A stretch of DNA of 64,000 bases, taken from IMG/VR virus record IMGVR_UViG_3300032038_000025, positions 1 through 64,000 of that record; one strand, 5' to 3'. Each line of letters begins with the position of its first letter. The stretch's first letter is position 1. The notes below the pieces were generated by a model that did no database searches, had not been told where the DNA came from, and saw nothing but the letters and a program-made list of their open reading frames with translations. The position numbers and the translations under genes were made by a program. This document shows positions 14,367-63,853 of this stretch, in pieces. The stretch comes from a virus (Duplodnaviria; Caudoviricetes).

Positions 14367-14438
14367 CGCTCAGTGGTCAAGTGGTTAAGACGCCAGTCTC
14401 TAAAACTGGAAACTCGAGTTCGATCCTCGGATGAGCGA
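14367..14438 (+). tRNA. amber suppressor tRNA (CTA anticodon) with a tRNA-Glu-type body
   Basis: CCAGT-CT-CTA-AA-ACTGG (anticodon 14400-14402); D arm TGGTCAAGTGGTTAAGAC; 4-nt variable loop; C1:G72. Confidence 0.9.
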
Positions 14439-21430: not shown

Positions 21431-21529
21431 GTTAAATAATTTGGTCAAAAATAAATAATTCTTCTATTGAATTTTTAATATATATTTAGATATAATAAAG
21501 TTTTAATGGAGACAAAAGGAGGAAAACAA

Positions 21530-24500
21530 ATGGCGTTAGTATCAAATTTATATCCGCCAATAGTTCAAGATACAAGTGTTGTTTTTTCTAAAAATACACC
21601 CTGTAGAATTTATTTTTAGTTATCTCCATATAATTCAGCTGATGATATAAAAAATGTACAAATTTCTTTAACAAATTTACGTACCAATGCTTCTGGTTTC
21701 AATAGTGATATTGTATAGAAATCTTCTGGAATAAAAATAGTTGGAATGAAAGATTAGGACTCTTCTTCTAGACATTATATTGAAATATTTCCGGCGGATA
21801 TGGCAAATGGCCAATTTGAAACAGGACAATTTTATAAAGTTCAGTTAAGATTTACGCATACTAGCGCGAAAGATATAGGAGATTTTATAAAACAATCAAG
21901 TAGCGATGAAGATAGCGATGAAAATAATTCTATAAAAAAATTAAAAAATGCTATATAGATAGTTTAGAATCTTGTAAATGAATATGAATATAAAGATGAA
22001 GAAACTATTAATAAATTAATAAATGAAATTAATGCAATAAATATTTCATCAAGAGAAAATGAAATAAATACAAAAGATATTGCTAATTGGCTATATAATC
22101 AAAGAGATTATTTTTCTTAGTGGTCTAAAATTATTTTAATAAAAGGTATAGATCCGCCGAGTATTTCGTTAAAATCTTTTAATGAAGTATAGAGTTTTTC
22201 TGGAAAAATTATGTTAACTCAACCTACTGTTAATATTGTTGGAAAAGTAAATTTTTCACAAAATAAGACAGATTCATTAAAAAGTTATAATATAAAACTT
22301 TATGATAAAGAGTCAAATGCTCTTTTATATCGAACAGAAGAAATATATCCTATTTCACCAGGTTCTAATGAGATTAATTATGAATTAATATATGATTTTT
22401 AGGATGCAGTTGATTATACTTTTAAATTAACATACACTACATTAGATGGATATACAAATTCAATTAGTAGGGATTTTTATATTATTCAAACCGAAGCGTT
22501 AACAGATAAAGTACCCGCAGATATAAATATTTTTGAAGATTCGGATAATGGAAGAATAAAAGTTAAAATTACCGCAAATACTGAAGATACTTTTTTAGGT
22601 AATATAGTCATTAGAAGAACTTCTTCTTAGTCTTAGTTTCATAAATGGGAAGATGTTCGTATTATTTCATATGCAGAATTTAGTAAAATTGATATTACTT
22701 GGTATGATAAAACTGTTAAAAGCGGCGTTTGGTATAAATATGGAATGCAAAAAGAAAACTCAACAGGATTTAGAGGAACTTTTACACAAGTAAAATAGCC
22801 AGTAATGTGTCTTTTTGATGACATATTTTTAATAAGAAAAAATGCTCAATTAAGAATAAATTTAAATCCATCTCTTAATGAATTTAAATATAATGTAATG
22901 GAATCTCAACAAAATCCATTAGGTTCAAAATTTCCTTTTATAAAAAGAAATTCTTCTAATTTTTTTAGAACATTCCCTATTGGAGGATTAATTAGTTCTT
23001 TTATGGATACTACAGATTGGTATGATCCTCATTTTTAGATTGGAATAAATAATAAAGGCGAAGAATAGGGTGTTTTTTATAATAATAAAAATTAGTTAAA
23101 ACTTTTTACATCAAAAGAAAAAATATATAAAAATTCTAAAGATTTATATAAACAATATAATAATGATAATAATATTAATTAGTATCAAGATTATATATAT
23201 GAAAGAGAATTTAGACAAAAGGTTTATGATTTTTTATATGCAAATGATGTAAAATTATTTAAATCTACAACAGAAGGAAATATTCTTATTAAATTAATGA
23301 ATATTGACTTTCAACCAATGGAGGCTTTAGGGCGGCGACTTTATTCATTTACCGCAACCGCTGTATAGATAGATGAATCTACTATTTTAAATTTTGATAA
23401 ATATGACATTCAAACAATTGGAACAGCCATCCAAGAAATTGGTTTTGATTATGATGTTTTAGGACAAATTGATGGAATTTTTAAGCCAAAAGATAATGGT
23501 AATGGTGCATCTGTTCCAGATAATATTATGCCATATATTCAACAAAAACAAAAAAATAGTCGTCAACAGTAGGGTTATATAGATGAACTTCAAAAACTAA
23601 AATGGGTAAGAATTGAAATTACATCTCCTCCATACGTTATTGTTAATGATGCTTCATTGGGATTAAGAAAAGCTAATCAAAATGATAATTTAGAAAATGC
23701 TATGATGGGATATTTAGTTATAATAAACGGAAATACAGTTATAATTCCTCCATCTGAATAGCGGCGAGATAATAATCTTCTTGAACCAAAAAATAATCCT
23801 ATTGAAGATATTTATATTTAGCATATAGGTTTTTTTGAATTAAAAGGAGATAATATTGCAGTTACTAGTTTAGCTTTCCCATAGGAAACTGAAGTAAGAA
23901 TAGATTATCTTGCTAATTTCATGTAGAAATAGGATGTTTCAAAGCAAATTAAAGGTGCTTATTATGACTATAGAGCTGGACAGCTTTATGATATATTTTA
24001 TCCTACCGATTCTGTTTTTAGAATAATTTCTAATAAATATTTGTTAGATTATGCAGATTACTATCAGAGATTAATTAATATTTCTGGAGTTGGACTTTCT
24101 GGCCCGCCTAAAACAACAGTATATGTAAGAGATTCTAAGGACAGTTCTTTTAATCGTCATATTTTAGAAAATGGATTTCTTCAATTAATAGATGAAGAAG
24201 CTAGCATTAATGGATTATATTTTTGCGGCGTTCATTTATAGCAATGTACGGATCCATTGTAGACCAAAAAAATAAATGGTCTTACTGATTTTAATTTTAT
24301 TGAAGGAACTTATTCTAATTTAAATGATATAATAAATCCTGCTAATGGCAATATCTATTAGATTGAAAAATGGGTAACAGAATAGGCGGCTGTTCAACCT
24401 TAGGCATGGATGGAAGATAATGTAATTCTAGTAGCAGAATTTAGTGAAACAGAAAGCCAAACATATAATTATACTTTATATCCAGAGTATTCTATTATAG

Positions 24501-25006
24501 ATCCTAAAAATTTATATACTTTATTATTAGATAGATATAAGTATAATTATAAGGTATATTTTGCTTATTATTATGGATGTTGGTACCTACTTCCCGCAAC
24601 AAGTCCTAATTAGGCAATAAGTGATGAAATAATAGATCAATTTTTAGAACAATTTAGACATGATATTAGATATTTAAGATAGGATGAATATATTATAACA
24701 GGTCAAAGTGCAGATACCTTTGAAGAAATAACAGATCCAATCCCAAATGGTGTATATACGATAGCTGCCGCGACAAATGATGAAGGTAGGTCTACTCTTA
24801 AAGGTACGAAAGAATATCTTATTAATACAGAATCTAAATATTCAAATAATATATTACAGGCTCTTATCAAAAATTCTAATAATAGATGTATTTATTATAA
24901 AGGTCAATGGTGCCATTTTACATCGGAAAATGATGTACTTTGTCCAGTTGAAGCCATTGTAGACTACTATTGTGAAATTGAAAAAGGAGTTTATAATAAT
25001 GGCTAA
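21530..25006 (+). CDS. large virion tail/baseplate protein (TAG read-through, about 1158 aa)
   Basis: GGAGG RBS; track fragments at 22211, 22805, 24041 and 24410 share its frame; LYPP, FS*WS and YEREF motifs. Confidence 0.75.
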
Positions 25007-31484: not shown

Positions 31485-31973
31485 ATGAAAATATTAACAT
31501 TAGATTTATCTACAAAATCATCTGGTTTCGCAATCGGATAGGACGAATCTTTAATATAGCATGGATGCATAACCGCAAGTTCAAAAGATGTGGTTAAACG
31601 TATTATAAAAATGCGGGATTAGTTATCTATTTTAATTAAAAATCATAAAATAGATAAAATTATTATGGAAGAGGTTCGTCCTGATTATAATGCTCATACT
31701 GGTAAAGTTTTAATGTGGTTACAATCTGCCATTGTAATAGCTGCATATTAGATTGATTCTAAAATAGAATGTTAGTTTATTACAGCAAGTCAATGGCGGG
31801 CGGCGCTTAAAATCCGCCAAGGACGAGGGGTAAAACGTGAATACCTCAAGCCGCAAGATATTCAATATGTTCAAGATAAATATAATATACGTGTGAATGA
31901 TGATTAGGCAGATGCCATTTGTTTATTTGATGCCTATTGGATTTTATTTAATAATGAAATGAATTGGGAATAA
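31485..31973 (+). CDS. RuvC-like Holliday junction resolvase (TAG read-through)
   Basis: ILTLDLSTKSSG, IIMEE, SQWR and NDD*ADAI motifs; entirely missing from the ORF track. Confidence 0.85.
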
Positions 31974-42158: not shown

Positions 42159-42209
42159 AAAAGCCTTCTAATTAATTTTAAATAATTAATTAGAAGGCTT
42201 ATTTTTTTT
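42159..42209. terminator. bidirectional terminator at the convergence point
   Basis: AAGCCTTCTAATTAATT/AATTAATTAGAAGGCTT inverted repeat flanked by A and T runs. Confidence 0.85.
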
Positions 42210-43230
42210 ACTCTTTTTTAATAAGAGCAATTTGTATCTAATAAATACAATTATTATAAGTATTTATTGCATCGTTAATTCGTTTAGTATTATATACTAT
42301 TTCATAATTATCATTCTAACAAAGAAATTGAATATCATCAATAGGAGTCATTCCATCGCCTGAATGGCCAGTACTCTCATACCATGAATTGCCAGATACC
42401 CAAGGCATCCATCCTTTATTTAAAAGATGAACTTTATAAAAAATTTTACATACATTAGAGCTTACTTTTATTTTAACAATAGGGTCATTAAAAATACCTG
42501 TTTTAGTGTTATTAAAAGTATCCATTAAATACCCATGTTTAAGTGTCTATATAGTATAAGATATTTGAGGAATAATCTTACTGGGTTCTGGCTAAAGTTG
42601 CGGCGGCGTGTTGTGATATGCGGCGATGGCAGATATAATACCGCTTTGGTCTAGTTCTGTGCGGCTAACAACCTGCCTTCCCGCCACCCATAAATTTATA
42701 CAGAAATATGATAAATCAACATTCCCAGCTATTCCATTTACCTTTTCTGTTGAAGAAAAATGACATCCCTAACATATGGCTGGAATTTCTAGATTCTGTT
42801 TACTAAAATTAGCTATCCATAGCGGATAAACGCAGTCCCCGCGCATATAGTTATCAAAAAAGGTTTGATTTGTGTAAATACCCATTCGATATCCTGCCAT
42901 TTGAATGAATTGGTAAAAAGTATCTATTACATCTTTATTGTAATATTCTTCAATATCATAATAAATACACCAAGGATGGTATTTATTTACCATAGTCAAA
43001 ACCTATCTAGCTTCTTCTTTTGCTTCTTTTACATCTCTAGCATATGAGTGAAAGGAGATTGCATATGGAATATTTAATTGCTAAAAAATATATAAGAAAT
43101 CTATATTATTAGAATATTTTTTATTATATTTAATAACCGCCGCATTGAAGATACCTTTTTTATATTCATTTAAAAGTTGGTTTTGATCTATTGTATTAGA
43201 ATAATTTATAGAAATTACTTTATAAATCAT
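42208..43230 (-). CDS. GH25 muramidase-like protein with C-terminal cell-wall-binding repeats (TAG read-through)
   Basis: YYDIE, MGIYTN, LWIANF and V.GIAGNVDLS motifs; fragments in frame. Confidence 0.7.
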
Positions 43231-48395: not shown

Positions 48396-51300
48396 TTATC
48401 GTCTCATTGCGCGCTGTGCGGCAAGATTTACTAAGTTATTAAACGCATCTTCAATCTATTGTTTGCTATTAACATTTGGGAAAGATGCTTCAATTTTTAT
48501 ATTTTGTTCAATAGTATCTGATTGATTATTAAACATATTAAAACCAGATTTAATATTAGACATTTTTACTTGAAGCCCATCTTTAAAATTACCAGCAATC
48601 TATCTTAATATTGAAATACCATTTAAGAAATTTTTAGTATCATCTTGATTTAAAACTAACTACTTTTTATCAAGTATAGCAATTTGACCCTAGTCTGAAT
48701 TCCAATCTCCCGTATAACCACCAGAAGCAAATCTTGCAATAGTTCTACGAGTTAATGAATTTCCTCCTTGAAGATAAAGATGTCCAGGTTGATTTGAACT
48801 TGATGCATTTGGTTTTTTAACATTATTAGATGTGCTTCCAGATCCATCAGAACCAGATCCGCCTCCATCAGAACCAGAACCACCAGTTCCATTATCTCCA
48901 CTAGACTGATATGCATTAGATAAAGCTGCTAATCTAGCTTGTAAATTAGCGGCTGCTTGGTAAATAGTATCCGTCATTCGCTAATAAGCCTTGCCGGTTT
49001 CAGCATAAACCGCCGCTTGTTCACGCTAATTATCAATAACACTTTTAATTTGGCTGACCATTTCTTTCGCAGCTGTGGTAACATTTTTATACTGTTCTTT
49101 TAAAGCATCTGCCGCAGTTTTTAACTATAATATAGCACTAAGTTCAGTAGACATACGATTAATCAACTAATCATTCTATTCAACTAAATCAGAAAACTCA
49201 TCAGTTAATTCATCAGTTCCTTCTGCAACATCATCTAAACTGATACCCGCAATTTCTGCCATCTATTCTAACTATTTTTGATAGTTTTTAGTGGTCTAAT
49301 CTAATGCTTCAAATGCTTTTTGGGTTGCTGGTATAAGACCGCCCTCTCCAGTGATTTTATCCATCATTTGTTGAATACCACCATTCCACCCAGGAACAAG
49401 AGTTTCCATAAGCGTTTTTAATTGCTCTTTAGACATATTTTTATAATTTTCAACATTAGTATTATATAAAGACGCATAATTTTGAATGGCAGAATCCATT
49501 AAATTGTTTCTAATATTAAGATTTTGCTATATATAACCAGTAATTTTATCTTGATATGCCTCATCTAGTAATGCTATTTGCTATGCTTTCTATTCTTCAG
49601 TTAAGGTAGCATCTAACATTAACTACATTCTTTTTTCTATATATTCTTGATAAGCAGCATACATTTCATCCAAATTTTGACGATATTTATCTTTATCAAA
49701 ATTATATAATTCATTTTGAGCATCAAGATAATTTTGTTGAGCATCTTCAATGCTCTATTCATCAGCAACATATTGATAAGAATAATTACCTTGAGCATCT
49801 CGTTTTAGTCTTAAAGATGTCTTACTAGATTGCGCCTATTCAAGAGCTATTCTAGCCTGTTCAACTTGTAACAGTTTTTCTGCTCTATCAACATCATATT
49901 GAGTTAATTTTTCTCTAGTCTTTAAATTCTCTAATTGTTCATCCATTAGTTTCTTTAAAGCCTTTTGATTTTTTAACCCATCTGTATTATTAATAGCTTT
50001 TTGGAATTTGTTTTCAAGAGATTGAAGTTCATAAGCAGAATTTACAGTATCTAAATATTCATCTGCGGCATCCTGCATATACTCCCACTCTTGACCTAGA
50101 TAATCAAGTCCTTTACCATTAGTAAGATTATTATTTAATTCTTCAAAAATTAAATTAAAAGTATTAGTATATTTATCTCTAATAAGATTTGCGCCATCCT
50201 ATATAGCGGAATTGATATTCTAAATAGCTCTCTTATAATTTTCTTCAAACTTTTCAGCTGCATTTGTCTGACCTGCGGCGATTGCAGCATCACGCCGTTG
50301 TTTCAAGAAATCCGCCTGTTTTCTTAATGAATCAATCTGCTTATTTTGATTATTTAGCATTTTATTATAATATTTATCCATTGCCGCATAATTCTTATCA
50401 CCATAAAGAATTTGCAATAAATCAATATTATGCTAAATTAAACCATTAACAAAATCATATCCTTCAATTTGTTTATCAAATTGATCTGCAATATCATCAA
50501 TAGTATCAAGATAAGCCTTATCAATATTATCAACAAGCTACTCAACTTCTTCCATTTGGTTCATTAATTCTTCCCAATCCTAAACCAAATGTTCCATAGC
50601 TTGTGCTTTGTCTTTGCCATAAATATCAGACCAACCAGTTTCATTGATTTCATTTATTTCTGCAAAATCTGCTTTTAATTGGTTAGTTAGTTTTTCGATT
50701 GAACCAATTGATCCACCTAAACCGCCATCTCCAAAGTATGAACGAAGATCATTAAAATCTTGTTTAACATCTCCAAATAATTCATCAAATTCACTATCTT
50801 TAAGAATATCTGTCGGCTAAAGAACATTTCTTACAAAATCATTCCAATCTCTTGCGGCTTCACCCATATCAAGACGAAGTTCAATTGAATAGCGGAATTT
50901 TTTAATATTATTTTCAATTTGCTTTTGAAGAGCTTCATCAAGAGCATCATTAGTTTCACCATACTCATTTTGAATATCTTCATATTGTTTAATTGCGCTC
51001 TAAAGCTATTTAAGTGCATCTTCGCCCTATTTGATTTTATCATCATATTCTTTAATAGCGGCAGATAGACCCTCTTTATAGGCTTTATCGGTAGATTTAT
51101 TATATTTCTAAACAAGTTCATTTCTTTGAGCAATTAATCCATTTAATTCAGACTATTTTCCAGTTAAAATCTATTGATAATTAGCAATATTATTATATTT
51201 ATCAAAAGTAACACCAAGATTTTTAAGAGTCTATCTTTGATTCTTTAAATCCTATTTTTGAATTTTTTGTTTTTCTTTTAATTTAGCAATACTTTTATCA

Positions 51301-54300
51301 AGGGTTGCATTCTGCTTATTTAAATTATCAATATATTGTTTACCAAATAATTTATCCTAATCTTTGGTTAACTTCTAAAGTGAACGATCAATCTTTTTAA
51401 GATCTCGATTGACATCATGATAAGGATCGGCGGTTTTCTTTAATGGCTTTTTCTTTTCCTTTTTAGAGGTATCAGGCTTGGTTCCACCGCCGCCTCCTCC
51501 GCCTCCGCCGCCACCTTTTTTGCCGCCGCTTCCGCCGGCATTACTGGCGTGCTTATATTTAAATCCACCACCGGAAGATTTATTTGCAGATATAACTTTT
51601 AAACCAAAAGCTTTGCTTTGTTTTTTTACTTTCATAGGTTCTGGTTTTGGAGTGACATCTAAAGCATCATATTGCCATGTTCCACTATATCCATCTCCAG
51701 CCTAAATAACAGGACCAGAATCTGAAGAACCCATACTAACCTATGGAAATCTAACAGTACCTGTTACAGTTCTTGCATTTGCATCATATGCAGCTACCTC
51801 AGACTCTTCTTCTGCATCAGTATCTGTTTCAATAACTTCTGCATCAACACCCATAGAAGCAAGATAATCAGTAGCTTGTTGAGCCGTTTGGAAAGCCCCA
51901 TCAACCATCTAACTCAATCCATTTAAAAAATCTTGATTATTTAATGAAGCACCAATCTACATATCATCAAGATTTTGACCCTAATAATATTTATTCATTA
52001 AATCATTAAAACCATTATTAAAGTCTTCTGTATTAAGTCCAACTTGCATAGCAATATCTTGTTGTGCAGCTTCCATTAAATCATCATAAGCCTCTTCAGA
52101 TCCCTATGCAGCCGCCTTCATTAAATCAAGATTTTCTGCATTGGTTAAAAAGTCTTCTGATAAAGATGTCCCATCTAGATCAAGTAAATCAGAATATGCA
52201 TCTCTTAACTCTCCTATGGCTTTAGATTGTTTTTGTAAACTACCACTAGAAAGTGCATCCATCCAATCTTCATAATTATCAGACACATCTTTAATAGCAT
52301 CGTCAAATCTTAAAACAGCTTCAGCAACATCTTCTGCCGCTCGCCCATCCTATTGTAAACTATCTGCTAATTCCTCAGACGATGTACTCATCTACTAAAT
52401 TACCTAAGTCATTTTAGCTAATTCACTCTAATCAACATCTTCATCAGTTGGAAACATCGCATCATGCATTTGATGAGCAAATTCTTTCCATATCTATTCA
52501 TTTTCTTTAGCTTTTTCAGAAAGGTCTCCAGTATAATCACTAATTTCAGTAACTTTATTAGCTAATGCTTCAGCTTGTTGAGCTGTTAATTCTCCATTGT
52601 TAGCAAGTTGTAACCATTTTTCAGCAAGCCATTTAGTTCTTTCATCAGTATCTCCAACAACATCTCTTAAATATTCAGCTTGTTTAACAGCCTGATCCAT
52701 TTCAACATAAGTATGAGTTTGTGAACCTCCACGCCCAGCATTACCATATGCATCTGAAAAAGCTGCAACTTTAGTTTCCTAAGTTTTTACTGCACTTTTA
52801 GTTAATTCATCATAATTTTGATTAGTAACTGTGTCTGGATGAGCTTGAGCATTACCAATTCTACTTAATCTATTTTCAATTTCTCCCATTGCAGCATGGA
52901 AGCCATCAAGTTTAAAAGAATTAATAGTTTCATAAAATTCTTTAGCATTACCAACTAATTTATAAGTACCATCGCCAGCAATTTTAAAATAAGATTTAAG
53001 CTATGGAGCAAGACTATCAAAATCTTCTGATGAAATATTCTTACCACTTCGTACAGTATCCTAAATACCTTGATATTGATTATAAGTTTCAGCTGCTTTT
53101 CTTTGATAATCTTGAAAATTATCTTTATTTAAATTAACTGCCGCAAGGTTAGATAAATCCATTCCCGCAATTTTTTGAATAAGTGCTAATAAAGTGTCCC
53201 AACTATCAATAGCCTATGGATCCACTTCAATAAAATCAAATAATGCATTAAGATGCTATTCATCTAATGATTCAAGAGCCTTTTTAACACCCTCTGTCAT
53301 TTCTCCGTCAAACTTGTCGTTCCACTATTTAATTTTATCTGCATACTCATCAAATTGAATAAATTTATCTCTATAGTTTCTAGCCAACTATGCATCAACC
53401 ATTGCATATAACTAATCATCACTATATTTTCCTTCTCCAAATTGCGCCTCAAGAGAATCTTTTAATGCTTCTCTGGCGTCCATATAATCATAAACGCTTT
53501 CAATGGCCTCATCTTGAATTTCAGGAAGTTTTAAAGCCTCAAGCTATGTAGAATATTTTTCATAATCCTTCATAGCAGCATCGTATGATTTTACACTATC
53601 CTCCATAGATTTTAACCATTGAGTTACCTCTTTATAAAGTGGAGACTATTCTAATTCTTTTTTCTGCTTCTAACTAAGATTATCTGTATACTAATTAATA
53701 GCATCATTTAGCTCATGATAAAAATTAACAATATCATCGCCCTCTAAATCCATTGAAAACTATAAACCATTCATGGTCTAATCTTGAAAAGCTGAAAGTT
53801 GAGATAAGGCTGTTCTTAATCCATTATCTTGTCTTCTACCACTACTAAATGTAATACCATATTGATTTGTAAGAGTATTTGCATCACCATTTGTTTTTGT
53901 AGCGACATCCTAAGCTACAAGTTTCCCGGCAGATTCCATTTCTGCTTTTGCAGATTCTTTTCCTTCTTCAGCAGCCGCCCTTCTTTTCTTAAGAATTCCT
54001 TCTGTTAAATTATCATAATGTTTTCTTAACTAATCTGCGGCCTACCCCTATAAACCATACTGATCAATAAGATTTTCAATTTGAGATTTTAACTAATTTC
54101 TAGTAATTTCATGCTATTCATATTTCTTTTGTAACTAGTCTAAAGATGAATATAATCCTCTTTGAGCCTAAATATTTTCTTGGATTGCATTTGCCTATTC
54201 AATATTTGCTTTAGCATTCTAAATGGCTTGTCTTCTTGCTTGCTATTTTATTGTTATAAGAGTTGTTATAACTGTAGCAACTGCCATTACTGCTGCAACA

Positions 54301-56960
54301 GCCACACCAGCAGAAAGACCTCCCAAACCAAATAATCCTATAATGGCGGCTCTGGCTTGAGTAAAACCATAAATAAGCATTGGAATCATACTAGTAATAT
54401 TTGTTGTTAATTGTAAAAATCTCTAACCATCTGTTAAATCTTTATTATTCCAAATATTACCAAGATTTTGAAATTGTTGGATAACCGAAGTTAATGTTGC
54501 AACGGAACCAGCTAATGCAGTCACATTTTGAACAGTTGATTGTAAATCTACATCTTTTTTCTTTTGATTAAAACTTTTATTTAAAGCAGCTCTTTCTTCT
54601 TCTAATTTTTGCTTTTGTTGTCTATATTCTTCTAATTTTCCTTCTTCTGCACTTTCTATTAATTCATCTATATGTTGAATTTGCGAATTTATAGTTTGCA
54701 TTAAATTCTTATAAATATTATCTACAACATCTGCGGCCTATTTATTAGTTCCTTTAAAAGTAGATGTATCAAAACTATTTAAATCATTTTGCATGTTTTG
54801 AAGAGATTTCTTTACATTATCAGATAAAAAACTAAATGGACTATTAGCCTCATTTAATTTAAATCCATCAAAAACATCTTGCATAGAATCTTTTAAAGTA
54901 TTAATTTGTTTTGCAAGCTGACCATTTTGATTAAAAGTATTGTTTTGATTTTGAGCATTTAATAAAGTAGATCCAGTAAAATCTTTATAAGCCTGTCTTA
55001 ATTTATCTTGTTCTGTTTGGACTGGTTTAAATGCATCTTTAAGTTCTAATAATTTATTTTTAAATTTCTCAATACCATTTTGACCAGCTAGAGCCTCATT
55101 TAAGTCATTATACCCATCCATAAAAATATCAACATTTTGACTTAAAGCCTTAAAACCCTATTCTAATAAATGATATTTTTCTCTAGCAACATCTAGCTCT
55201 CCAGCATTTTTACTTATATCTTGCAATTGCTTTTGCATGATATTAAAATCTCCTGAAGATAACTTTCCACTTTGAGCCATTTTTAAAAGATCATTCTATT
55301 GATTAATTATAAATTGAGTGGTATCATCTCCAACGCCTTTATCTTGTAAATTTTTAGCTTCTGCAATTGCATTTTTAATATATTGAGTTTGTTGTTTAAC
55401 TTTCTCAAAATTATTAATAGTAGTAGTAATACTGCCTGCTATTTGTTTACTAAAGACTAGCATAGCAACAGAACCAAGATCTCTTAATACTCCTATGCCG
55501 CCACCAATACTATCAACAAAATTAGCACCAAAAGTCGCAAGCTATGATAATGCATCAATTATTTTATTAATACTATCTGTATCAGCTAAACTATCATATA
55601 TATCTTCCATTGATGCCTTTAATGTTTGAAGATGTGCAGCTGTTGAATCCATATAAGTATCTTGTTGCTCTTGTAACGTACCTGCCGCACCTTGCGCAGT
55701 AGCTAATGCTTCATTATATTTTTCAAAATTATCAAATAAAGCAATTAAATTAGAATATTGTCTTTGACCTGCCATAGTTTGTGCTAAAGAAATCTGTTGC
55801 TCACGAGTTAATGATTCCCATTTATTACCAATTTCTTCCATTACCTCGCCCATATCACGAAGATTACCATTCATGTCAAGAACATTAAATCCTAATTCTG
55901 CCATTTTTCCAGAATAATTACCAAGAGTAACGCCATCTTCATCAATACCAGCTTTAATATCACTAATACGAGCATATACGGTTCTTAAAGCAGTACCAAC
56001 ACTTTCAGGCGCCTGCCTAGTAACAGAAATAATTGTTGACAACTGTGCGGCTAACTGATCCTAACCTACACCCATCGCGGCGGCCGCACTTGCAACCTTA
56101 CTCATACCAGTACTTAATTCCTAAAGGTTTGATGCCGTTGTTGCAGCAACCGCAGCCAGTCTATCAACATAAAGCTATGCTTCATCCGCGGTAACTTTAT
56201 AACCATTCCATACAGCAGTTAACTATTCTGAAACAGCATCTGTTGATTGACCAGTAACGTTAGCAGCTTTAAGAGTAATTGCCGCTCTTGCCTATATCTA
56301 TTTATCTGACAAACCCTGTTGTGCATAAATTAATGCAGCATTGGTATAATCAGTTGTTGTTTTTCCTAATTCTTTTGCAGCATTATTAGCTTGTACTGCA
56401 AATTTAGCCATTTCATCACTAGATTTACCAGTAACAATTCTAATATCATTTAATGATGTATCTAATGCTTTTACATATCCCCATGCCTGTTCAACAGATC
56501 GTGAAAAACCATTAACAACACTAGAAGCCACATTCCATTTAATTGTATTAGCAAGTGTTTTTGCCATTTTATCAAGTAAAGCATGGCTTTCTTTTAATTG
56601 AATATTAGTAGTTAAAAGTTGTGTAGTTAAATTTCTAAATGCGGCTTCTCCGGCAGCCCCCGCTCTAGTAAAAGTCTGATAAACTTGCTAAATTGGTAAA
56701 CTCCCTAATTCTTTTTTAAAAATTTCAAGATTAACCGTTCCTAATTTAACATTAAAAGCCTTATCAAGTGCCTACTACACTTTCCTAGCTTCTTTTTCAA
56801 TTTCCTTAAAATAGCCTCTTGCAGTTTGTATATCAGTATTATTAATCTTCATTACATCACTAACTTTCATTTTTTGTAAGTCTTGTAATGAAGATTTTAA
56901 CTGATTTAAATTCTGGGTATTAACATCAAATCCAACTTGATATTTAATTTGATTTGCCAT
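48396..56960 (-). CDS. tape measure protein (TAG read-through, about 2854 aa)
   Basis: 12 track fragments share one frame; TP901-type core LDTSLNDIRIVTG and VTRQAPESVGTALRT; FASGGYTG near the C-terminus. Confidence 0.9.
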
Positions 56961-57070: not shown

Positions 57071-57499
57071 TTATTCTTCTATTCCATCTGTGGCAAATTC
57101 ATGTTGTTCTAGCAATTCCGCATATGTATTTCTTATGTGTTCAATACTAGCTTGCGCACGTTCATTTTTAAATTTTGGATGTGTGCCACAAAATTCAAGA
57201 TATTCAGTTATGTTTTCAAGTGTTTGATTCCATGATTCCATACTATGAATGCGGTTATTAACTATATCATCACTAAATTGTAGAATAGAAGCTCGTTTAG
57301 CTTTAGCCTAATTAGTGTCAATTTTATTATCAAGTTCACTAATTTCTAAATGAATTTCATCTATTGCCCCAAGTATTTCTCTCTTCTAATCTTCTTTCTT
57401 ATCTTTTCTAGCAATAAGAAATTGAATAAAATTCCAAATACCTACTGAAGCAAACATGCTTATAATACATGTTATTATTGTCTGCCACATTGGGTTCAT
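57071..57499 (-). CDS. membrane-anchored holin-associated protein (TAG read-through)
   Basis: N-terminal TM helix; RASILQFSD...HPKFKN motif; lies next to the lysin. Confidence 0.65.
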
Positions 57500-57600
57500 T
57501 AGCAATATCACCTTTCCGGGCGGGAGCGCATTAGCAACAGCCGCCCTTTAATATAATAAATTTAAGATTCATCCCTTATCTCCTGTTGCAAATATTATTA

Positions 57601-59226
57601 TCAACATTTGCTTAACCTAATTTTAATCTCTGTAAATGGTTTACCAAACCAACCTGCGGTTTGATTTCCATCACCAGACTCCCAATTGGTGTCGTGAATT
57701 TCAGAATAGTATTTGTTATTATCATAGGGTTTTACAGAATATACTGCTTCATAGTAAACCCCACCAGTTTTTGTTGTATCTGTAGTATAATAGATTTGAA
57801 TAGCATCTAAACTATTAACACCATTTCCTACCCACTGTCCATTAGAGTATTTTTTAGACCAACCTTTATTGAGGTAATGAACTCTATACTGAACAGAACC
57901 AGAAGAAACATTCATTTTAATTTTAAGAATACTGTCATTTGCTACACCTGCGGCGGCGCCGTTCTTTGCAGCTTTAAGGGTGCCGTGATTTCTTGTCTGA
58001 AGGGTGTAAGAGATTGTAGGTGCGGCGGTCGCCATTGAAGCGCTCGTATTACCAGTGGTTGTAATAGTCGTCTAAGCGGTGGTTGCCGCAGCTCCATACT
58101 TCGGACGAGCATATCCTCGAATGTTGCCATCGCCTATTGTATAATAGCATCTTCTTACAGCATTATTACTATTTCCTTCAATAGTAACAATTGTCTTACC
58201 ATTCACGGTCTCGACAATACCAATGTGGTCTGCAAAACCATCATTGGGCTGAGTAGAATCGTCCCAGTTAAAGGTAATAATATCACCCGCTTTGGGAATA
58301 ATGCTTCCATCTTCATACCAAATTCCTTTAGCTTTGAATAATTGTATATGCCTTTCAACGCCACATTCTGTTCCACCAATTAGATCAGTGGCACCAGCCT
58401 TGATAAACGCAGCAGAAAGAGTGGCATCACACCATGCATCATACATGGAAAGAGCCACACCAAGAGCGAGAGGTTTATGATTGTTGTATGTATTAATAAC
58501 ATCTGCATGAGCATTGGCATTGTTAATCCATCCACGGTAAACATTCAGTACCTGTTCTGCGGTCACGCCAGTTTTAGCTTTTGCTTTTGTTGTAGTCTTT
58601 GACGAAGAAGATTTCTGCGCATACTTTTTCCAGTCGGCGGCAGTGCCATAAAAAATATTGAGATCCAGATTGGAATTATATCCATTTAATCTTCCTGCGC
58701 CAGTATACTGATAGATTGCAACCTTACCAAAAGTTCCCCAACCATTAGCGTCAGTCCAAGGATTAGATTGATATCCGTATACTAAATTATGATTTGCGTA
58801 TTGCGCACACCAAAGTGGGTATCCCGCAGAACCAACCGACGCCGCAAGAGGAACAATACTTTTGCTTGTATAAAGGAAAGGCTTTACACCAGAAAGTTTA
58901 TAAAACTCATCCATTAAATTTTTAAGATAAGAAATATTGTTCCAAGCACTATTTTGATAAGACTACCAATCAATAGCCATAATAGCTTTTCCAATATAAT
59001 TTTTTACTTTATTATAGAAAAACTTCGCCTATGCGGCAGCTCCACCGCCACCAACATAATGATAACACCCCGCAAGTTTACCTCTATTTAGCACAGTGTC
59101 GATCTTATAAAAATCAGGATTGATATATGTTGTACCTTGCGTTGCCTTAACAATACAAAAATCATATGGTATCTTGGTTACATCTACTGAGTTATTTGAA
59201 GAAATATCAACTCCATTTAATGCCAT
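57601..59226 (-). CDS. modular endolysin GH25 + CHAP + cell-wall-binding domain (3 in-frame TAG)
   Basis: Three track fragments in one frame; GVDIS, KATQG, IDW*, WCD...HIGIV...EGN motifs. Confidence 0.9.
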
Positions 59227-59285: not shown

Positions 59286-59555
59286 TTAATCTAATGTCTG
59301 TGTTTTCTTAATCAGCTGATTAATGCCAGTTGCGGCAAAGCCAGATACAATGCCGATCGCAAGCGCATTAATAATATCTGCCGCAGGAAAGTCTGGCATG
59401 ACAAACATTCCAATCACACCAAGAATTGCTCCTGCAACTCCCATGATAGATGGGATGCGATCGTTGTTAATCTGTGTCCACTCCTTGACAATATAGCCAA
59501 TAAGATAGCAGATAATTGTAATTCCTGCAACACTAACGATACCTAAAGATTCCAT
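59286..59555 (-). CDS. holin
   Basis: Three TM segments; GIVSGFAATGINQ; directly upstream of the endolysin. Confidence 0.85.
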   Translation of the reverse strand: MESLGIVSVAGITIICYLIGYIVKEWTQINNDRIPSIMGVAGAILGVIGMFVMPDFPAADIINALAIGIVSGFAATGINQLIKKTQTLD

Positions 59556-59568
59556 AATAATATCCCCC

Positions 59569-61908
59569 TTAACTAATATATTTATAATTAACTCCTGTTT
59601 CAAAAACAGAAGTCAAATCCGTTTGTTCAACCCAAGACCCATTGACTTTCTTATAAACCGTTCTACCTTCAACCCAAGATCCGTTCACTTTAATATAAAT
59701 AGTTCCAGTATTCGTAGTACAGGTAAGCACGATATTATGTGCGGCATTGATATTCGTTAACTTATAAATATAGTTAACGACTATCTTACCAGTCTTTGAA
59801 TCTGTGGTTTGTTCTTTCTCAAACACAATTGAGTTTCCATTATCCGCACCAGTGATTTCTGCGGTCGAGTCATCTGGCACTACAACGAGCGAATAATTCT
59901 GTCCCGCAAGCCTGACTACTTGACCATCTGGATACAATTTTGCACCAGTTCCAGAAGAGGTAATGAAGTAATAATCAACATCACCAAAGACAAATATCAG
60001 ACTATGTTTAGCATTGACATTGCTCAGTGTGTAAGTATATTCCCCACCGCCGCCTGTCGCTTCAATTTCAACCTTGAACTGCAATGAGTCATTACCATTA
60101 TCTGTGTATTGGTCTTTAAAAAACTTAACATCAATATAATGACTTCCTGCGCTTACTGTATAAGTTAGTTCATGTTCAGCAGTTCCGTTAATAGAAGAGC
60201 AAGCCAATTCAACATCAGACGCATCATCAGCAGAAGAGGATGTGCTAAGAGCAGTGTCTAGCTTACCGAAGATACCATAGTCATATCCTGCCTCGGCATA
60301 GTTAATATACTTGAAGGTAATGATACAATCTGATTCCAAATTTAATGTGACTCTGGCAACAGCCGCAGAATTTGAAACGCCTTGGTTGTTTGACTCATAA
60401 TACCCATTGCTGTTTACTGCGAATCCATAGTTTGAACTTCTATTTGCAACAGAGTATGTATTTTTGGGAATGCCACCCTGTAGCTGACTAGTTATGTCAA
60501 CACCATTATCAAGAGCAAGCGTTAATTTTGTCTCAGTTGGGAAAATAGATATTGTCTGATTCGTTCCTTCTTGTACACGAGTTGTGCCGTTGGCGGGATC
60601 AGTTGTTGCATTGATACTTGATATGGTAATCGGGTAGTAAGTATATTGCGGATCTTCGTCTGGTGGAATAAATGGGCCAGACTCACCGATTGTTATAACG
60701 TGGTCTGCCGCAATTCCTGTTAACTCATACTCGTAATAATACTGGTCGCCGCTAGTTGGAATTTCATAAACAACTGTCCATGTTGCACCGACAACCGCAC
60801 CACCATAGTAACCAATAGTAAACCGCAGTTTTGCTTCTTGTAACTCGGCTCTTGTCCAAGTTCCTGCGGTCATAGTTATTGTGGAATTAGATGTCGTTGT
60901 AAATGATGACTCACTGCCTTTTGCGGTTGAACCAGAATAAAGTTGCAAATCCGCAACCTCGCTTGAATTTGACGTACTCTCACAGTGTCCTCTGACTTGT
61001 ACAGTAACAGAAGTAATCGTTGCATTTTCTGGAATACCGCTGAAGTCAAAAGAGTAATCAATGTGTGCGGTTGAGCCTTGAGAAGAACAGTAGTCACTTG
61101 AAGTGCCACCGCTAGTCTCAACGCCAACACCAATAGCATTTCGGTAGTTTGTGCTACTAATATTTCCGCTTGTTGTGGCATTTTCTGGATTTGCTTCAAT
61201 TGTGCCGCCAGTTACAACCTCTTTAAGAATAAGGCCGCCAGTGACATCAGTGCCATTATCTAAAACTTGAATGCCATCAAGCGAGTCGGTGTTGACCTTT
61301 ACAACAGCATCGCCGCCCTCCACAATTTCCTGCGTTGCGGGTTCGGCGGTTATTCCACTCACACTACTGGTCGCAGTGATTGTATAAGCCGTGCCTTGAA
61401 TAGTGTAACCAACCGTGAGTGTTGCACCATAAAATCTGCAAATATATGATGTCGAAGTTGTAGATGATGTACCTCTTGTGACGTACAGACGAATCTTTGC
61501 ATTTCGCAACTCTGCTAAAGTCCAAGAGCCAACTGATAAGGTTACTGTACTTGCATAGTTTGAAATAGTTGTTGCAGACCCTTTTGTCGTTGTTCCAGTA
61601 CACATCTGCATTTGACGAGTGCTGATATATCTTGAACTAGTTGTACTAACATAACCTTTTGCCTGACATGCAACAGAATTAATAGTCGCACCTTCTGGGA
61701 TTTTACTGGTGTCGAAGTTGTAATAAACATAAGTAGCAGCACCAGACCCAGTTGTAAGTACGAACTGGGCATAGCTACTACTTGTTGCATCCGTGTAGCC
61801 ATTGTCAATAGGATACGAGCTACTTACAGATGCATATCTTGAATTTGTTGTATCCAGTGAGGAAGGATGAAATGTTAAGCTATTACTTACGTCTACTTGT
61901 CTTGCCAT
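59569..61908 (-). CDS. beta-rich virion surface/adhesin-like protein
   Basis: 779 aa, S/T-rich, duplicated FD.S.IP..ATI.SV domain; YIKVNGSW tail. Confidence 0.75.
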   Translation of the reverse strand: MARQVDVSNSLTFHPSSLDTTNSRYASVSSSYPIDNGYTDATSSSYAQFVLTTGSGAATYVYYNFDTSKIPEGATINSVACQAKGYVSTTSSRYISTRQMQMCTGTTTKGSATTISNYASTVTLSVGSWTLAELRNAKIRLYVTRGTSSTTSTSYICRFYGATLTVGYTIQGTAYTITATSSVSGITAEPATQEIVEGGDAVVKVNTDSLDGIQVLDNGTDVTGGLILKEVVTGGTIEANPENATTSGNISSTNYRNAIGVGVETSGGTSSDYCSSQGSTAHIDYSFDFSGIPENATITSVTVQVRGHCESTSNSSEVADLQLYSGSTAKGSESSFTTTSNSTITMTAGTWTRAELQEAKLRFTIGYYGGAVVGATWTVVYEIPTSGDQYYYEYELTGIAADHVITIGESGPFIPPDEDPQYTYYPITISSINATTDPANGTTRVQEGTNQTISIFPTETKLTLALDNGVDITSQLQGGIPKNTYSVANRSSNYGFAVNSNGYYESNNQGVSNSAAVARVTLNLESDCIITFKYINYAEAGYDYGIFGKLDTALSTSSSADDASDVELACSSINGTAEHELTYTVSAGSHYIDVKFFKDQYTDNGNDSLQFKVEIEATGGGGEYTYTLSNVNAKHSLIFVFGDVDYYFITSSGTGAKLYPDGQVVRLAGQNYSLVVVPDDSTAEITGADNGNSIVFEKEQTTDSKTGKIVVNYIYKLTNINAAHNIVLTCTTNTGTIYIKVNGSWVEGRTVYKKVNGSWVEQTDLTSVFETGVNYKYIS

Positions 61909-61921
61909 TTAATCACACCCC

Positions 61922-63853
61922 TTACTGTTTAATCCAGATGTCACCATCATTGCCGCCTGAAGGGGAAGCACTTGAAACCGTGACAGTGGAATATGTTAAT
62001 GCCACATTCACACTGGCGAGATTGGTAACATCTACTGTACCATTTGCGGTAATTGTCTGACTGCCGCTTACTAATTCACTTGCGGTCACCGTCACCGCAG
62101 TACCATATTTCGTTCCACCGCTGATATAACCAGTGGTATTTGTCACGCTCGGTGTCACTGTGATTGAGTGATTGCTCACCGTTCCTTTGCTTGCGGACGG
62201 CGTTCCCGCTGAACCACTCGCAACAGATTTTGTAGCTTGTGCAGAATAGTATCCTGCGGGTACAGTAACTGTTGCGCCACTTACCGTAAGATCATCGCCG
62301 TCTCTCTGGGTAATTCCAGAACCAACATAGGTAGAACTAATTGCACCAACCTTCACGATGCCTGTCGTATAAACTCCTGCGGCAACCGCATTTTGTTCAG
62401 ACTCGGTTGGAGTGACTGTTTTCGCCGCCTGTGTTGTAAGCTGAAGAGTTCCAGTTGTTGTTCCTGCGCTAACATATCCTGCCGCCTGTGTGTGACTTGC
62501 CGTCACAAGGCCAGTAGTAGAGTTGACAGAAGCAGTTGGATTAGCATGAGTTGCAGTTGCCACTGATTTAGTTTCCTGCTCCGCATAGTATCCAGATGGC
62601 ACGGTGATAGTTGCGCCAGAGGCGGTGAGATCCGTCTCATCTCTCTGAGTGATATCAGAGCCTACATATGTCGATGAAATCGCTCCCACCTTCACTACAC
62701 CAGTGGTATACATGCCAGAAGCAACTGCGGTCTGCTCACTCTCAGTCGGTGTGACAGTTTTTGCGGCTTGGGTTGTAAGCTGTTGAGTAGCTGAACCACT
62801 CACAGTAATCGTCCCCGCTGTTCCCGCACTCACATATCCTGCGCTCACCGTTGGTGTGACGCTCTTTGTTGCCGAAGCTGTCGCAGTAATCTTACCATCT
62901 GAACCAACACTAATGGTTGGGTTTGCAGTAACTGTTGTTGCAGGAGTTGTTGCGCTACCAGAAGGCATTGCATTAATCTGAACACTAGAAAGACCATCAT
63001 AACCAGAGTCGGCTGTGATGGTCTGACTTGATGTTGTTGGATTAATGTTGGTTTTTGCTTGGAGAGATGGAGCAGAAGAGGAGACATTAACATTAGCACT
63101 CGCATAATTCGTTACATCATGCGTTCCGTTCGATGTAATGTTGATTGTTCCTGTGGGGGTGATGCCACCACTTGTATCTCCATCATATGTTGTAATTACT
63201 TCACCAGTTTCATAATGTATTAATTTAACTGTTGTGTTGGTCGCAAGATCTTTCATAAATCCGGCTGATGTCATATCTATATTAACAAAAGCTGTTATAT
63301 GTAAACCATCTGTGCTACCAACGCTATTAACTGTAATTCCCGGAGGTACTGGACAATCATTTCTATAGTAACCGGCACCACTCCAATATGGCCCACCAAA
63401 TCTACCAAGAACTAATTCTGTTAAGTTAGTATTATTAAAAACATAATGTTGCGCTTCAAAATAATCAACGGAAGACCCTTGATAATACACAGAAGTTGGC
63501 GCTAAAATTAATCGTTTTAAATTTGGGTATTTTTCAATAGAAAATTGATTATTACTGCCGCTAGAATAAAAGGTCTGGCCAGCACCAGTTTTTATAACTT
63601 TTCCAGTTAATGTTAAATTAACTAAATGTTCCATATTGCCATATGTATTAAGCGCATCATAAGAATACTTACCACCCATATCAATAATCATGGTTTCAGT
63701 ATACTTCTTACCAGTGCTAGATGTATATACGGTCTCGCCACTAATAGTATCTTCTTCTCGTCTATATGTTAACACATTTCCGCCATTGTCGGTGGCCTTG
63801 AAGCCTGCGACATTTGTAAATTCTCTTCCGAATATTTGTAATGTATCGCTCAT
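61922..63853 (-). CDS. Thr/Ser-rich fibre-like protein with internal duplication
   Basis: 643 aa; two copies of LTTQAAKTVTPTESEQ...TVP.GYY; GDIW C-terminus. Confidence 0.75.
   Translation of the reverse strand: MSDTLQIFGREFTNVAGFKATDNGGNVLTYRREEDTISGETVYTSSTGKKYTETMIIDMGGKYSYDALNTYGNMEHLVNLTLTGKVIKTGAGQTFYSSGSNNQFSIEKYPNLKRLILAPTSVYYQGSSVDYFEAQHYVFNNTNLTELVLGRFGGPYWSGAGYYRNDCPVPPGITVNSVGSTDGLHITAFVNIDMTSAGFMKDLATNTTVKLIHYETGEVITTYDGDTSGGITPTGTINITSNGTHDVTNYASANVNVSSSAPSLQAKTNINPTTSSQTITADSGYDGLSSVQINAMPSGSATTPATTVTANPTISVGSDGKITATASATKSVTPTVSAGYVSAGTAGTITVSGSATQQLTTQAAKTVTPTESEQTAVASGMYTTGVVKVGAISSTYVGSDITQRDETDLTASGATITVPSGYYAEQETKSVATATHANPTASVNSTTGLVTASHTQAAGYVSAGTTTGTLQLTTQAAKTVTPTESEQNAVAAGVYTTGIVKVGAISSTYVGSGITQRDGDDLTVSGATVTVPAGYYSAQATKSVASGSAGTPSASKGTVSNHSITVTPSVTNTTGYISGGTKYGTAVTVTASELVSGSQTITANGTVDVTNLASVNVALTYSTVTVSSASPSGGNDGDIWIKQ

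What the first reader, a model, noticed from the sequence alone, without database searches (positions are those of the whole stretch)
58963..58965. The endolysin's catalytic glutamate is encoded by TAG
Seen: the minus strand reads ATG GCT ATT GAT TGG TAG TCT (MAIDW*S). An earlier TAG falls in GAAA*AKFF and a third links CHAP to the binding domain. Established: GH25 muramidases use a D-x-E motif whose Glu is the catalytic acid (Cpl-1, cellosyl), so Gln there should cripple the enzyme. Inference: this is the best single-site argument for TAG=Glu. It also makes a double lock on lysis, since termination gives a 65-aa stub and a Gln suppressor gives a dead GH25 domain. The adjacent holin has no TAG.
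Basis: partly seen in the sequence, partly recalled or inferred. Interest (0 to 1): 0.85.

Follow-up and report, generated by a model that had tools for sequence, protein, structure and literature searches.

The report
Endolysin catalytic glutamate spelled TAG
In a 118-kb cattle-gut phage, the stop codon TAG sits where the cell-wall-cutting lysis enzyme needs a catalytic glutamate, and wider tests show this phage reads TAG as glutamate, not the glutamine reported for other recoded phages.

Summary
The 541-codon endolysin gene (57601-59226, minus strand) has three in-frame TAGs, at codons 66, 88 and 385, and no other internal stop. Codon 88 (58963-58965) aligns with the Glu of the GH25 D-x-E motif in solved structures and in every close homologue. 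A standard-code relative read at DNA level has GAG there and GAA at codon 66.

TAG = Glu is supported independently:
- 85 TAG sites in the tape-measure protein and 29 in another large protein behave like this phage's Glu codons, not its Gln codons.
- The single tRNA(CUA) matches only tRNA-Glu genes in phage records and in Lachnospiraceae genomes, where the match is tRNA-Glu(CUC), one anticodon base away.

The "double lock on lysis" idea is not supported. TAG spells 3 of 14 Glu codons in this gene, the usual share for recoded genes. Relatives use GAA/GAG at the site. An intact CHAP domain could lyse without GH25. The holin has only three Glu codons, so its lack of TAG says nothing.

Two near-identical public proteins show Q at all three sites; they are most likely table-15 translations of TAG.

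Other notes from this scan reached the same TAG = Glu reading on this genome. Proteomic proof is missing.

The parts
57601..59226 (-). Endolysin gene, 541 codons plus a TGA stop. It has GH25, CHAP and a C-terminal domain. An AAGGAGG ribosome-binding site lies upstream of the ATG.
58963..58965 (-). TAG codon 88, at the Glu position of the GH25 D-x-E motif (D86-W87-TAG88).
   Evidence: Aligned to E in 2wag, 6zmv and 4kru. E in all 17 homologues. GAG in the standard-code locus L004.
59029..59031 (-). TAG codon 66, in the motif AAA-TAG-AKFF.
   Evidence: E in the five closest homologues and in 52 of 66 aligned homologues; Q in 5. GAA in L004. Q in 2wag and 6zmv.
58072..58074 (-). TAG codon 385, in the variable linker between the CHAP domain and the C-terminal domain.
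   Evidence: The homologue column is mixed: E 13, Q 10, K 10, S 9. It is uninformative for the code.
58681..59211 (-). GH25 muramidase domain, aa 6-182. The conserved Asp residues are D7 (59206-59208), D86 (58969-58971) and D188 (58663-58665).
   Evidence: Pfam PF01183, 78.2 bits against a cut-off of 27. D7 and D188 are invariant.
58171..58332 (-). CHAP domain core: Pfam match aa 299-352, conserved block about aa 220-378. Cys266 and His334 are invariant.
   Evidence: Pfam PF05257, 32.3 bits against a cut-off of 26. Invariant columns in alignment A2.
57604..58029 (-). C-terminal domain (about aa 400-541) with no Pfam family. It is shared with the protein at 42208-43230 and is presumed to bind the cell wall.
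   Evidence: The function is inferred from its position only.
59286..59552 (-). Holin (Phage_holin_5_2) directly upstream. It has no TAG, but only 3 Glu codons.
14367..14438 (+). The only tRNA with anticodon CUA in the genome. Its body is of the tRNA-Glu type.
   Evidence: alignment A3.
57071..57511 (-). Small downstream ORF (146 aa) with an N-terminal hydrophobic helix, 2 TAGs and no family match. It may belong to the lysis cassette.
   Evidence: The function was not tested.

Best explanation
The gene encodes a working two-enzyme endolysin (a GH25 muramidase plus a CHAP peptidase/amidase, followed by a C-terminal domain). The Glu of its D-x-E catalytic pair is spelled TAG because this phage reads TAG as glutamate. 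The phage carries one tRNA(CUA) whose body is that of a Lachnospiraceae-type tRNA-Glu(CUC), with the third anticodon base changed from C to A. A host glutamyl-tRNA synthetase presumably charges it, since the phage record encodes neither a GluRS/GlnRS-type synthetase nor a release factor. In recoded genes TAG spells about a fifth to a third of all Glu codons, and the catalytic Glu is one of 3 out of 14 in this gene. So the site is a by-product of genome-wide recoding rather than a purpose-built switch. It is still an unusually clean diagnostic, because only Glu gives an active muramidase. As in other recoded phages, the enzyme cannot be made until the suppressor tRNA is present. Shown here: the alignment of the site, the E/GAA/GAG state of relatives, the Glu-like behaviour of TAG sites, and the Glu-type tRNA. 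Inferred: charging by host GluRS, actual Glu insertion, and the timing effect.
For: Site: 2wag IDVE, 6zmv LDME and 4kru LDIE align with D86-W-TAG88. PMC7954357 names the D and E of the DXE motif as the GH25 catalytic residues. Alanine mutants of D9 and E94 lower killing by another GH25 endolysin (PMC13722301).

Relatives: all 17 aligned homologues have E at codon 88, and the 5 closest have E at codon 66. The standard-code locus L004 (GC 49%, 73% identical) has GAA at codon 66 and GAG at codon 88.

Code, tape-measure protein (85 TAG sites against 120 homologues): the aligned residues are E 0.28, Q 0.17, D 0.12. This resembles the profile at this protein's own Glu codons (E 0.35, Q 0.14, D 0.14) and not at its Gln codons (Q 0.44, E 0.10). 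Site-weighted log-likelihood is -198.6 for E against -219.3 for Q. Column majorities are E 39, D 10, Q 10. A Q majority occurs at 12% of TAG sites against 61% of Gln-codon sites (Fisher p = 5e-15); against Glu-codon sites the difference is not significant (p = 0.5).

Code, second protein (29 TAG sites against 150 diverse representatives): E 0.25, Q 0.06. Two columns are over 90% E. Its composition fits E+TAG, not Q+TAG. The RNase H motif G-N-TAG-L-A-D aligns with G-N-E-E-A-D of human RNase H1.

tRNA: every annotated phage match to the tRNA(CUA) is a tRNA-Glu. In three Lachnospiraceae genomes the only match is tRNA-Glu(CUC). The D arm, the anticodon loop apart from position 36 and the 4-nt variable loop are shared.
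Against: There is no protein-level evidence.

Three tape-measure TAG sites lie in columns that are 75-90% Gln. That is 3 of 15 strongly conserved TAG columns, against 1 of 42 for Glu codons (p = 0.05).

The tape-measure composition is ambivalent: both E and Q are below the homologue means.

CAG is depleted in TAG-bearing genes.

At codon 66 the distant PDB homologues have Q.

Two 98-99% identical database proteins (P0514, P0515) show Q at all three sites. I read these as table-15 translations, but could not check their DNA.

The acceptor stem of the tRNA (C1-G72, A73) differs from the host tRNA-Glu genes. Candidate hosts have a GlnRS, which in E. coli readily charges CUA suppressors (my knowledge).
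Confidence: 0.8

Rival explanations
1. TAG means glutamine, as in the published 'code 15' phages. The GH25 domain then carries D-x-Q and is inactive or only binds the wall, and the CHAP domain does the cutting.
For: All published phage TAG reassignments are to Gln. Codon 66 aligns with Q in 2wag and 6zmv. P0514 and P0515 show Q at all three sites. Three conserved-Gln tape-measure columns hold TAG. The CHAP catalytic Cys and His are intact.
Against: TAG sites behave unlike this phage's Gln codons (p = 5e-15). Q is only 6% at TAG sites in the second protein. The tRNA(CUA) matches only tRNA-Glu genes, while the phage's own tRNA-Gln(UUG) has a different D arm and a different variable loop. The close relatives have E, GAA or GAG at codons 66 and 88. 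P0514 shares its strain-specific residues (H304, V381) with P0392, a fragment that ends just before codon 385. The same DNA was therefore read with a stop by one pipeline and as Q by another.
Confidence: 0.07
2. TAG is decoded ambiguously, as a mix of Glu and Gln, for example by competing GluRS and GlnRS charging of the same tRNA. Only part of the endolysin pool would then have an active muramidase.
For: There is a slight excess of conserved-Gln columns among TAG sites (p = 0.05). Simple mixing of the Glu-codon and Gln-codon profiles fits 72-90% Glu (my arithmetic). Both E and Q are low in the tape-measure protein. Candidate hosts carry a GlnRS.
Against: The excess is marginal. It is also explained by frequent CAG-to-TAG transitions giving conservative Gln-to-Glu changes, which fits the CAG depletion. 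The second protein shows no Gln signal. A tape-measure protein with 85 ambiguous sites would be highly heterogeneous.
Confidence: 0.08
3. The TAG at the catalytic Glu was selected as a fail-safe: termination gives a stub, and any non-Glu suppressor gives a dead muramidase. This is an add-on to the best explanation, not an alternative to it.
For: The logic is sound if TAG = Glu. Recoded lysis genes have been proposed to time lysis. Codon 88 is followed by a stop-flanked fragment in at least one more assembly, which is consistent with the TAG being kept within the species.
Against: TAG makes up 3 of 14 Glu codons, so the chance that a given Glu is TAG is about 0.21 and there is no enrichment. 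Relatives at 73-85% identity use GAA or GAG. The first TAG, at codon 66, already blocks synthesis. The CHAP domain could lyse without GH25. The holin is not recoded.
Confidence: 0.1
4. The gene is broken (a pseudogene) or the TAGs are sequencing errors.
For: None beyond the presence of stop codons.
Against: The stops are only TAG, 368 in-frame TAGs occur in 61 genes, and homology continues across them. The same sequence appears in an independent library.
Confidence: 0.01

Closest known systems
TAG-recoded 'genetic code 15' phages (crAss-like, Lak, Garnet, Topaz, phAss-1; Borges et al. preprint 10.1101/2021.08.26.457843; PMC10607447; PMC9523058)
   Same: In-frame TAG is concentrated in structural and lysis genes. 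The phage encodes a tRNA(CUA). The record encodes no synthetase of its own. The genome has low GC. The hosts use the standard code.
   Different: Those phages read TAG as Gln; Borges et al. state that they saw only TAG-to-Gln and TGA-to-Trp. Here the TAG sites and the tRNA both point to Glu.
GH25 endolysins and muramidases with solved structures: Psm of Clostridium phage phiSM101 (4kru/4krt), cellosyl (1jfx), B. anthracis 2wag, Cpl-1
   Same: The full-length GH25 domain is present. The N-terminal Asp, the D-x-E position and the C-terminal Asp are all conserved.
   Different: The motif Glu is written with a stop codon. The architecture adds a CHAP domain and an unassigned C-terminal domain.
Peritrich ciliate nuclear code (NCBI table 30, TAA and TAG = Glu) (from my own knowledge)
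   Same: A stop codon is reassigned to glutamate through a tRNA-Glu-like suppressor.
   Different: That code is eukaryotic and nuclear, and both TAA and TAG are reassigned. Here only TAG is reassigned, in a virus whose host keeps the standard code.
Laboratory amber suppressors such as E. coli supE (tRNA-Gln CUA) (from my own knowledge)
   Same: A single anticodon change turns a sense tRNA into a UAG reader.
   Different: CUA anticodons tend to attract GlnRS in E. coli. This tRNA has a Glu-type core and an unusual C1-G72/A73 acceptor end, which may keep GlnRS off (inference).

Membership tests
Glycoside hydrolase family 25 (PF01183) | The sequence matches the family profile over its full length and above the curated cut-off. 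| tested here: met
   78.2 bits against a cut-off of 27, profile positions 1-179 of 180. A profile of the homologues hits 15 GH25 structures, the best being 4kru at 2e-26.
Glycoside hydrolase family 25 (PF01183) | The D-x-E motif is at the aligned position. | tested here: met
   D86-W87-codon 88 aligns with IDVE, LDME and LDIE. All 17 homologues have E there. The alignment to 1jfx was shifted by two residues in this stretch and was not used.
Glycoside hydrolase family 25 (PF01183) | Glu is actually inserted at codon 88. | not testable with these tools
   This is inferred from the TAG = Glu evidence. It needs mass spectrometry.
Glycoside hydrolase family 25 (PF01183) | The flanking conserved Asp residues (Cpl-1 D10 and D182 equivalents) are present. 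| tested here: met
   D7 and D188 are invariant in alignment A2 and in 64 and 91 aligned homologues respectively.
Glycoside hydrolase family 25 (PF01183) | The protein has muramidase activity. | not testable with these tools
   This needs an enzyme assay.
CHAP domain (PF05257) | The profile match is above the cut-off, and the catalytic Cys and His are conserved. | tested here: met
   32.3 bits against a cut-off of 26. C266 and H334 are invariant in alignment A2.
Code-15 (TAG = Gln) recoded phage | In-frame TAG occurs in late genes, and the phage has a tRNA(CUA). | tested here: met
   368 TAGs in 61 genes, and one tRNA(CUA).
Code-15 (TAG = Gln) recoded phage | TAG sites align with Gln in standard-code homologues. 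| tested here: not met
   Q is the column majority at 12% of TAG sites against 61% of Gln-codon sites, p = 5e-15. Q is 6% at TAG sites in the second protein.
Code-15 (TAG = Gln) recoded phage | The suppressor tRNA is of the Gln type. | tested here: not met
   All matches are tRNA-Glu.
Phage holin family Hol44 (PF16079), for the neighbouring gene | The profile match is above the cut-off. | tested here: met
   82.2 bits against a cut-off of 29.2.

The most novel reading that the evidence does not exclude
TAG is a true glutamate codon in this phage, the first natural UAG-to-Glu code in a virus of bacteria. Placing it at the catalytic Glu of the endolysin is selected as a fidelity checkpoint, so that only cells carrying the phage's own Glu-suppressor tRNA, and not any host or rival Gln suppressor, can make an active muramidase.
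Probability: 0.1. Interest if true: 0.85.

Novelty: new variant of a known kind. Interest (0 to 1): 0.7.

Why it matters
Stop-codon recoding in phages is known, but every case in the papers I could search is read as TAG = Gln or TGA = Trp. If TAG = Glu holds, table-15 annotation mistranslates this phage group. Public databases already appear to hold this endolysin with D-W-Q in place of D-W-E, which makes an active enzyme look dead.

The site also offers a simple functional test of the code. The E88 and Q88 versions should differ sharply in muramidase activity, and one tryptic peptide across codon 88 would settle the decoding.

It also bears on how a CUA-anticodon tRNA escapes GlnRS in a host that has one. 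That question is of interest for engineered orthogonal suppressor systems.

Tried and rejected
The DNA behind P0001-P0005 and P0514/P0515 could therefore not be read.
- An IMG/VR scan with the endolysin found no relative. An exact pattern around codon 88 found nothing either.
- Read laying: contigs of runs X1 (98.6% identical) and X3 (about 92% identical) cover the TAG sites. The list of differences is truncated, so their codons at 66, 88 and 385 cannot be stated.
- The RNA-library contig shows presence only, not transcription.
- The PDB search with the RuvC-like ORF (31485-31973) found nothing.
- The tape-measure amino-acid composition test was ambivalent.
- The GAG and CAG third-base fractions fall together in TAG-bearing genes, so they do not separate E from Q.
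- I first thought the host might lack GlnRS, so that a Glu-charged tRNA escapes the GatCAB amidotransferase. I rejected this as the main argument because all five candidate-host genomes carry a GlnRS-type gene.
- ARAGORN's 'tRNA-Pyl' label is only its name for a CTA anticodon.
- In distant homologues, tblastn placed gaps at the X of codon 88. Those rows were ignored.
- I ran no structure prediction, because the sequence evidence for the fold was already strong.

Full report
**What is there.** The window is the first 64 kb of a single 117,928-base phage record with 32% GC. On the minus strand, 57601-59226 is one 541-codon reading frame. It is preceded by an AAGGAGG ribosome-binding site and ends in TGA. 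It is interrupted only by three TAG codons: codon 66 (59029-59031), codon 88 (58963-58965) and codon 385 (58072-58074). Pfam finds a full-length GH25 domain (aa 6-182, 78.2 bits against a cut-off of 27) and a CHAP domain. The last 140 residues or so have no family. The gene just upstream is a Phage_holin_5_2 holin with no TAG.

**Is codon 88 the motif glutamate?** Yes.
- A search of solved structures aligns D86-W87-TAG88 with I-D-V-E of the B. anthracis GH25 enzyme 2wag and with L-D-M-E of 6zmv.
- A profile built from homologues aligns it with L-D-I-E of the phiSM101 endolysin 4kru. PMC7954357 gives that enzyme's catalytic pair as D101/E103 and names the D and E of the "conserved GH25 DXE motif" as the catalytic residues.
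- The same paper treats the Asp as the proton donor and the Glu as its supporting partner. Older work on Cpl-1 and cellosyl (from my own knowledge) treats the Glu as the acid. It is safer to call it one of the two catalytic residues.
- Alanine replacement of the equivalent D9 and E94 lowers killing by another GH25 endolysin (PMC13722301).
- The flanking conserved aspartates D7 and D188 are invariant.

**What do relatives carry?** Full-length homologues of 74-85% identity exist. All five have E at codons 66 and 88, and all 17 aligned homologues have E at codon 88. One relative could be read as DNA. L004 is a 44-kb metagenome contig with 49% GC, and its endolysin gene (73% identical to this one) and most other long ORFs have no in-frame TAG. 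It has GAA at codon 66 and GAG at codon 88. Codon 385 lies in a variable linker and is uninformative.

**A trap in the databases.** Two public proteins that are 98-99% identical (P0514, P0515) show Q at all three positions.
- P0514 shares its strain-specific residues (H304, V381) with P0392, a 280-residue fragment from another assembly that starts at residue 105 and ends just before codon 385.
- A 65-residue stub is on record from two contigs.
- The simplest reading is that one pipeline stopped at TAG and another translated the same DNA with table 15.
This remains the one loose end that could still favour Gln.

**Is TAG glutamate genome-wide?** I tested this independently of the endolysin.
- Tape-measure protein (48396-56960, 85 TAGs, 120 full-length homologues). 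I compared the residues aligned to TAG with those aligned to the protein's own Glu and Gln codons.
  - TAG sites give E 0.28, Q 0.17, D 0.12. Glu codons give E 0.35, Q 0.14, D 0.14. Gln codons give Q 0.44, E 0.10.
  - The site-weighted log-likelihood favours E over Q by about 21 units.
  - Q is the column majority at 12% of TAG sites, against 61% of Gln-codon sites (p = 5e-15) and 9% of Glu-codon sites (p = 0.5).
- Second protein (21506-25006, 29 TAGs, 150 diverse representatives). It gives E 0.25 and Q 0.06, with two columns over 90% E. Its composition fits E+TAG.
- RNase H. A TAG aligns with the E of G-N-E-x-A-D in human RNase H1.

**The tRNA.** The genome has one tRNA with anticodon CUA (14367-14438) and no other suppressor.
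- BLAST against 50,697 phage records returns only genes annotated tRNA-Glu.
- In three Lachnospiraceae genomes the sole match is tRNA-Glu(CUC).
- The alignment shows an almost identical D arm, the anticodon loop C-U-C-U-[C to A]-A and the short G-A-A-A-C variable region. The phage's own tRNA-Gln(UUG) differs in all of these.
- The acceptor stem (C1-G72, discriminator A73) differs from the host tRNA-Glu genes.
- The phage record has no GluRS/GlnRS-type synthetase and no release factor, although it is estimated to be only 88% complete.
- Charging by host GluRS is therefore an inference.
- The candidate hosts were guessed from the best bacterial endolysin matches: Lachnospiraceae, Eubacterium and Blautia genomes assembled from ruminant and other animal samples. 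All of them have a GlnRS-type gene. The tRNA must therefore also escape GlnRS, and the strong 1-72 pair and A73 may serve that purpose (inference from E. coli rules).

**What does not fit neatly.**
- Three tape-measure TAGs sit in columns that are 75-90% Gln. This is a marginal excess over Glu codons (p = 0.05).
- Both E and Q are below the homologue means in that protein.
- CAG is depleted in TAG-bearing genes.
- All three are explained if frequent CAG-to-TAG transitions produce conservative Gln-to-Glu replacements once TAG means Glu. Partial Gln decoding is not excluded.

**The 'double lock'.**
- TAG usage is bimodal. Genes have either none or 20-38% of their Glu positions written as TAG.
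- The endolysin, at 3 of 14, is ordinary for the recoded set. The chance that a given Glu is TAG is about 0.21.
- Relatives spell the site GAA or GAG.
- Termination at codon 66 already prevents synthesis.
- The CHAP domain keeps its Cys and His, so a dead GH25 need not stop lysis.
- The holin has only three Glu codons, so the chance of no TAG is 0.45.
- The general idea that recoded lysis genes wait for the suppressor tRNA is published and applies here. Nothing indicates that this particular codon was selected.

**Novelty.** In the library I searched, no paper reports TAG to glutamate in a phage. Borges et al. state that they saw only Gln and Trp. The phAss-1 paper assigns Gln. Other notes from this scan on the same genome reached the same TAG = Glu reading. 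I treated them as leads and re-derived the evidence here.

Noticed in passing
Proteins P0514 and P0515 (ENA contigs of 30,473 and 85,949 bases), aligned to window 57601-59226: Public databases hold this endolysin in full length with Q at codons 66, 88 and 385, so it reads D-W-Q. This is most likely a table-15 translation of TAG, which makes the muramidase look inactive.
   Followed up: partly
window 42208-43230 (-): A second GH25-like protein (340 aa, 7 TAGs). Its D-I-E motif is spelled with ordinary codons, and its C-terminal part resembles the endolysin's C-terminal domain. It may be a virion-associated lysin.
   Followed up: partly
window 59569-61908 and 61922-63853 (-): Two large tail-fibre-like genes next to the lysis cassette have 37 and 19 Glu codons but no TAG (p = 6e-5 and 7e-3). 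TAG use is bimodal across the genome, which suggests recently acquired modules or a distinct expression class.
   Followed up: partly
window 48396-56960 (-), tape-measure residues 1522, 1868 and 1936: Three TAG codons sit in columns where 75-90% of 120 homologues have Gln. Either Gln-to-Glu replacements arose through CAG-to-TAG changes, or there is some Gln decoding.
   Followed up: partly
whole genome (G000): CAG makes up 15% of Gln codons in TAG-bearing genes but 42% in TAG-free genes. GAG falls only from 21% to 17%.
   Followed up: no
L030 (9 in-frame TAGs), L021 (3), L066 (2), L015 and L048 (1 each): Other metagenome contigs encode related endolysins with in-frame TAGs at different positions. 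Several of those TAGs fall in columns where E is the commonest residue. Recoded relatives with this lysin family are therefore not rare.
   Followed up: no
window 57071-57511 (-): A small ORF after the endolysin has an N-terminal hydrophobic helix, a coiled-coil-like tail, 2 TAGs and no family match. It may be a lysis accessory protein.
   Followed up: no
G001-G005 (Lachnospiraceae-type genomes reached through L095, L101, L106, L159 and L086): All five carry a GlnRS-type gene (PF03950 in ORFs of 565-609 aa), and three also carry GatB. A CUA suppressor in such hosts must avoid GlnRS.
   Followed up: partly
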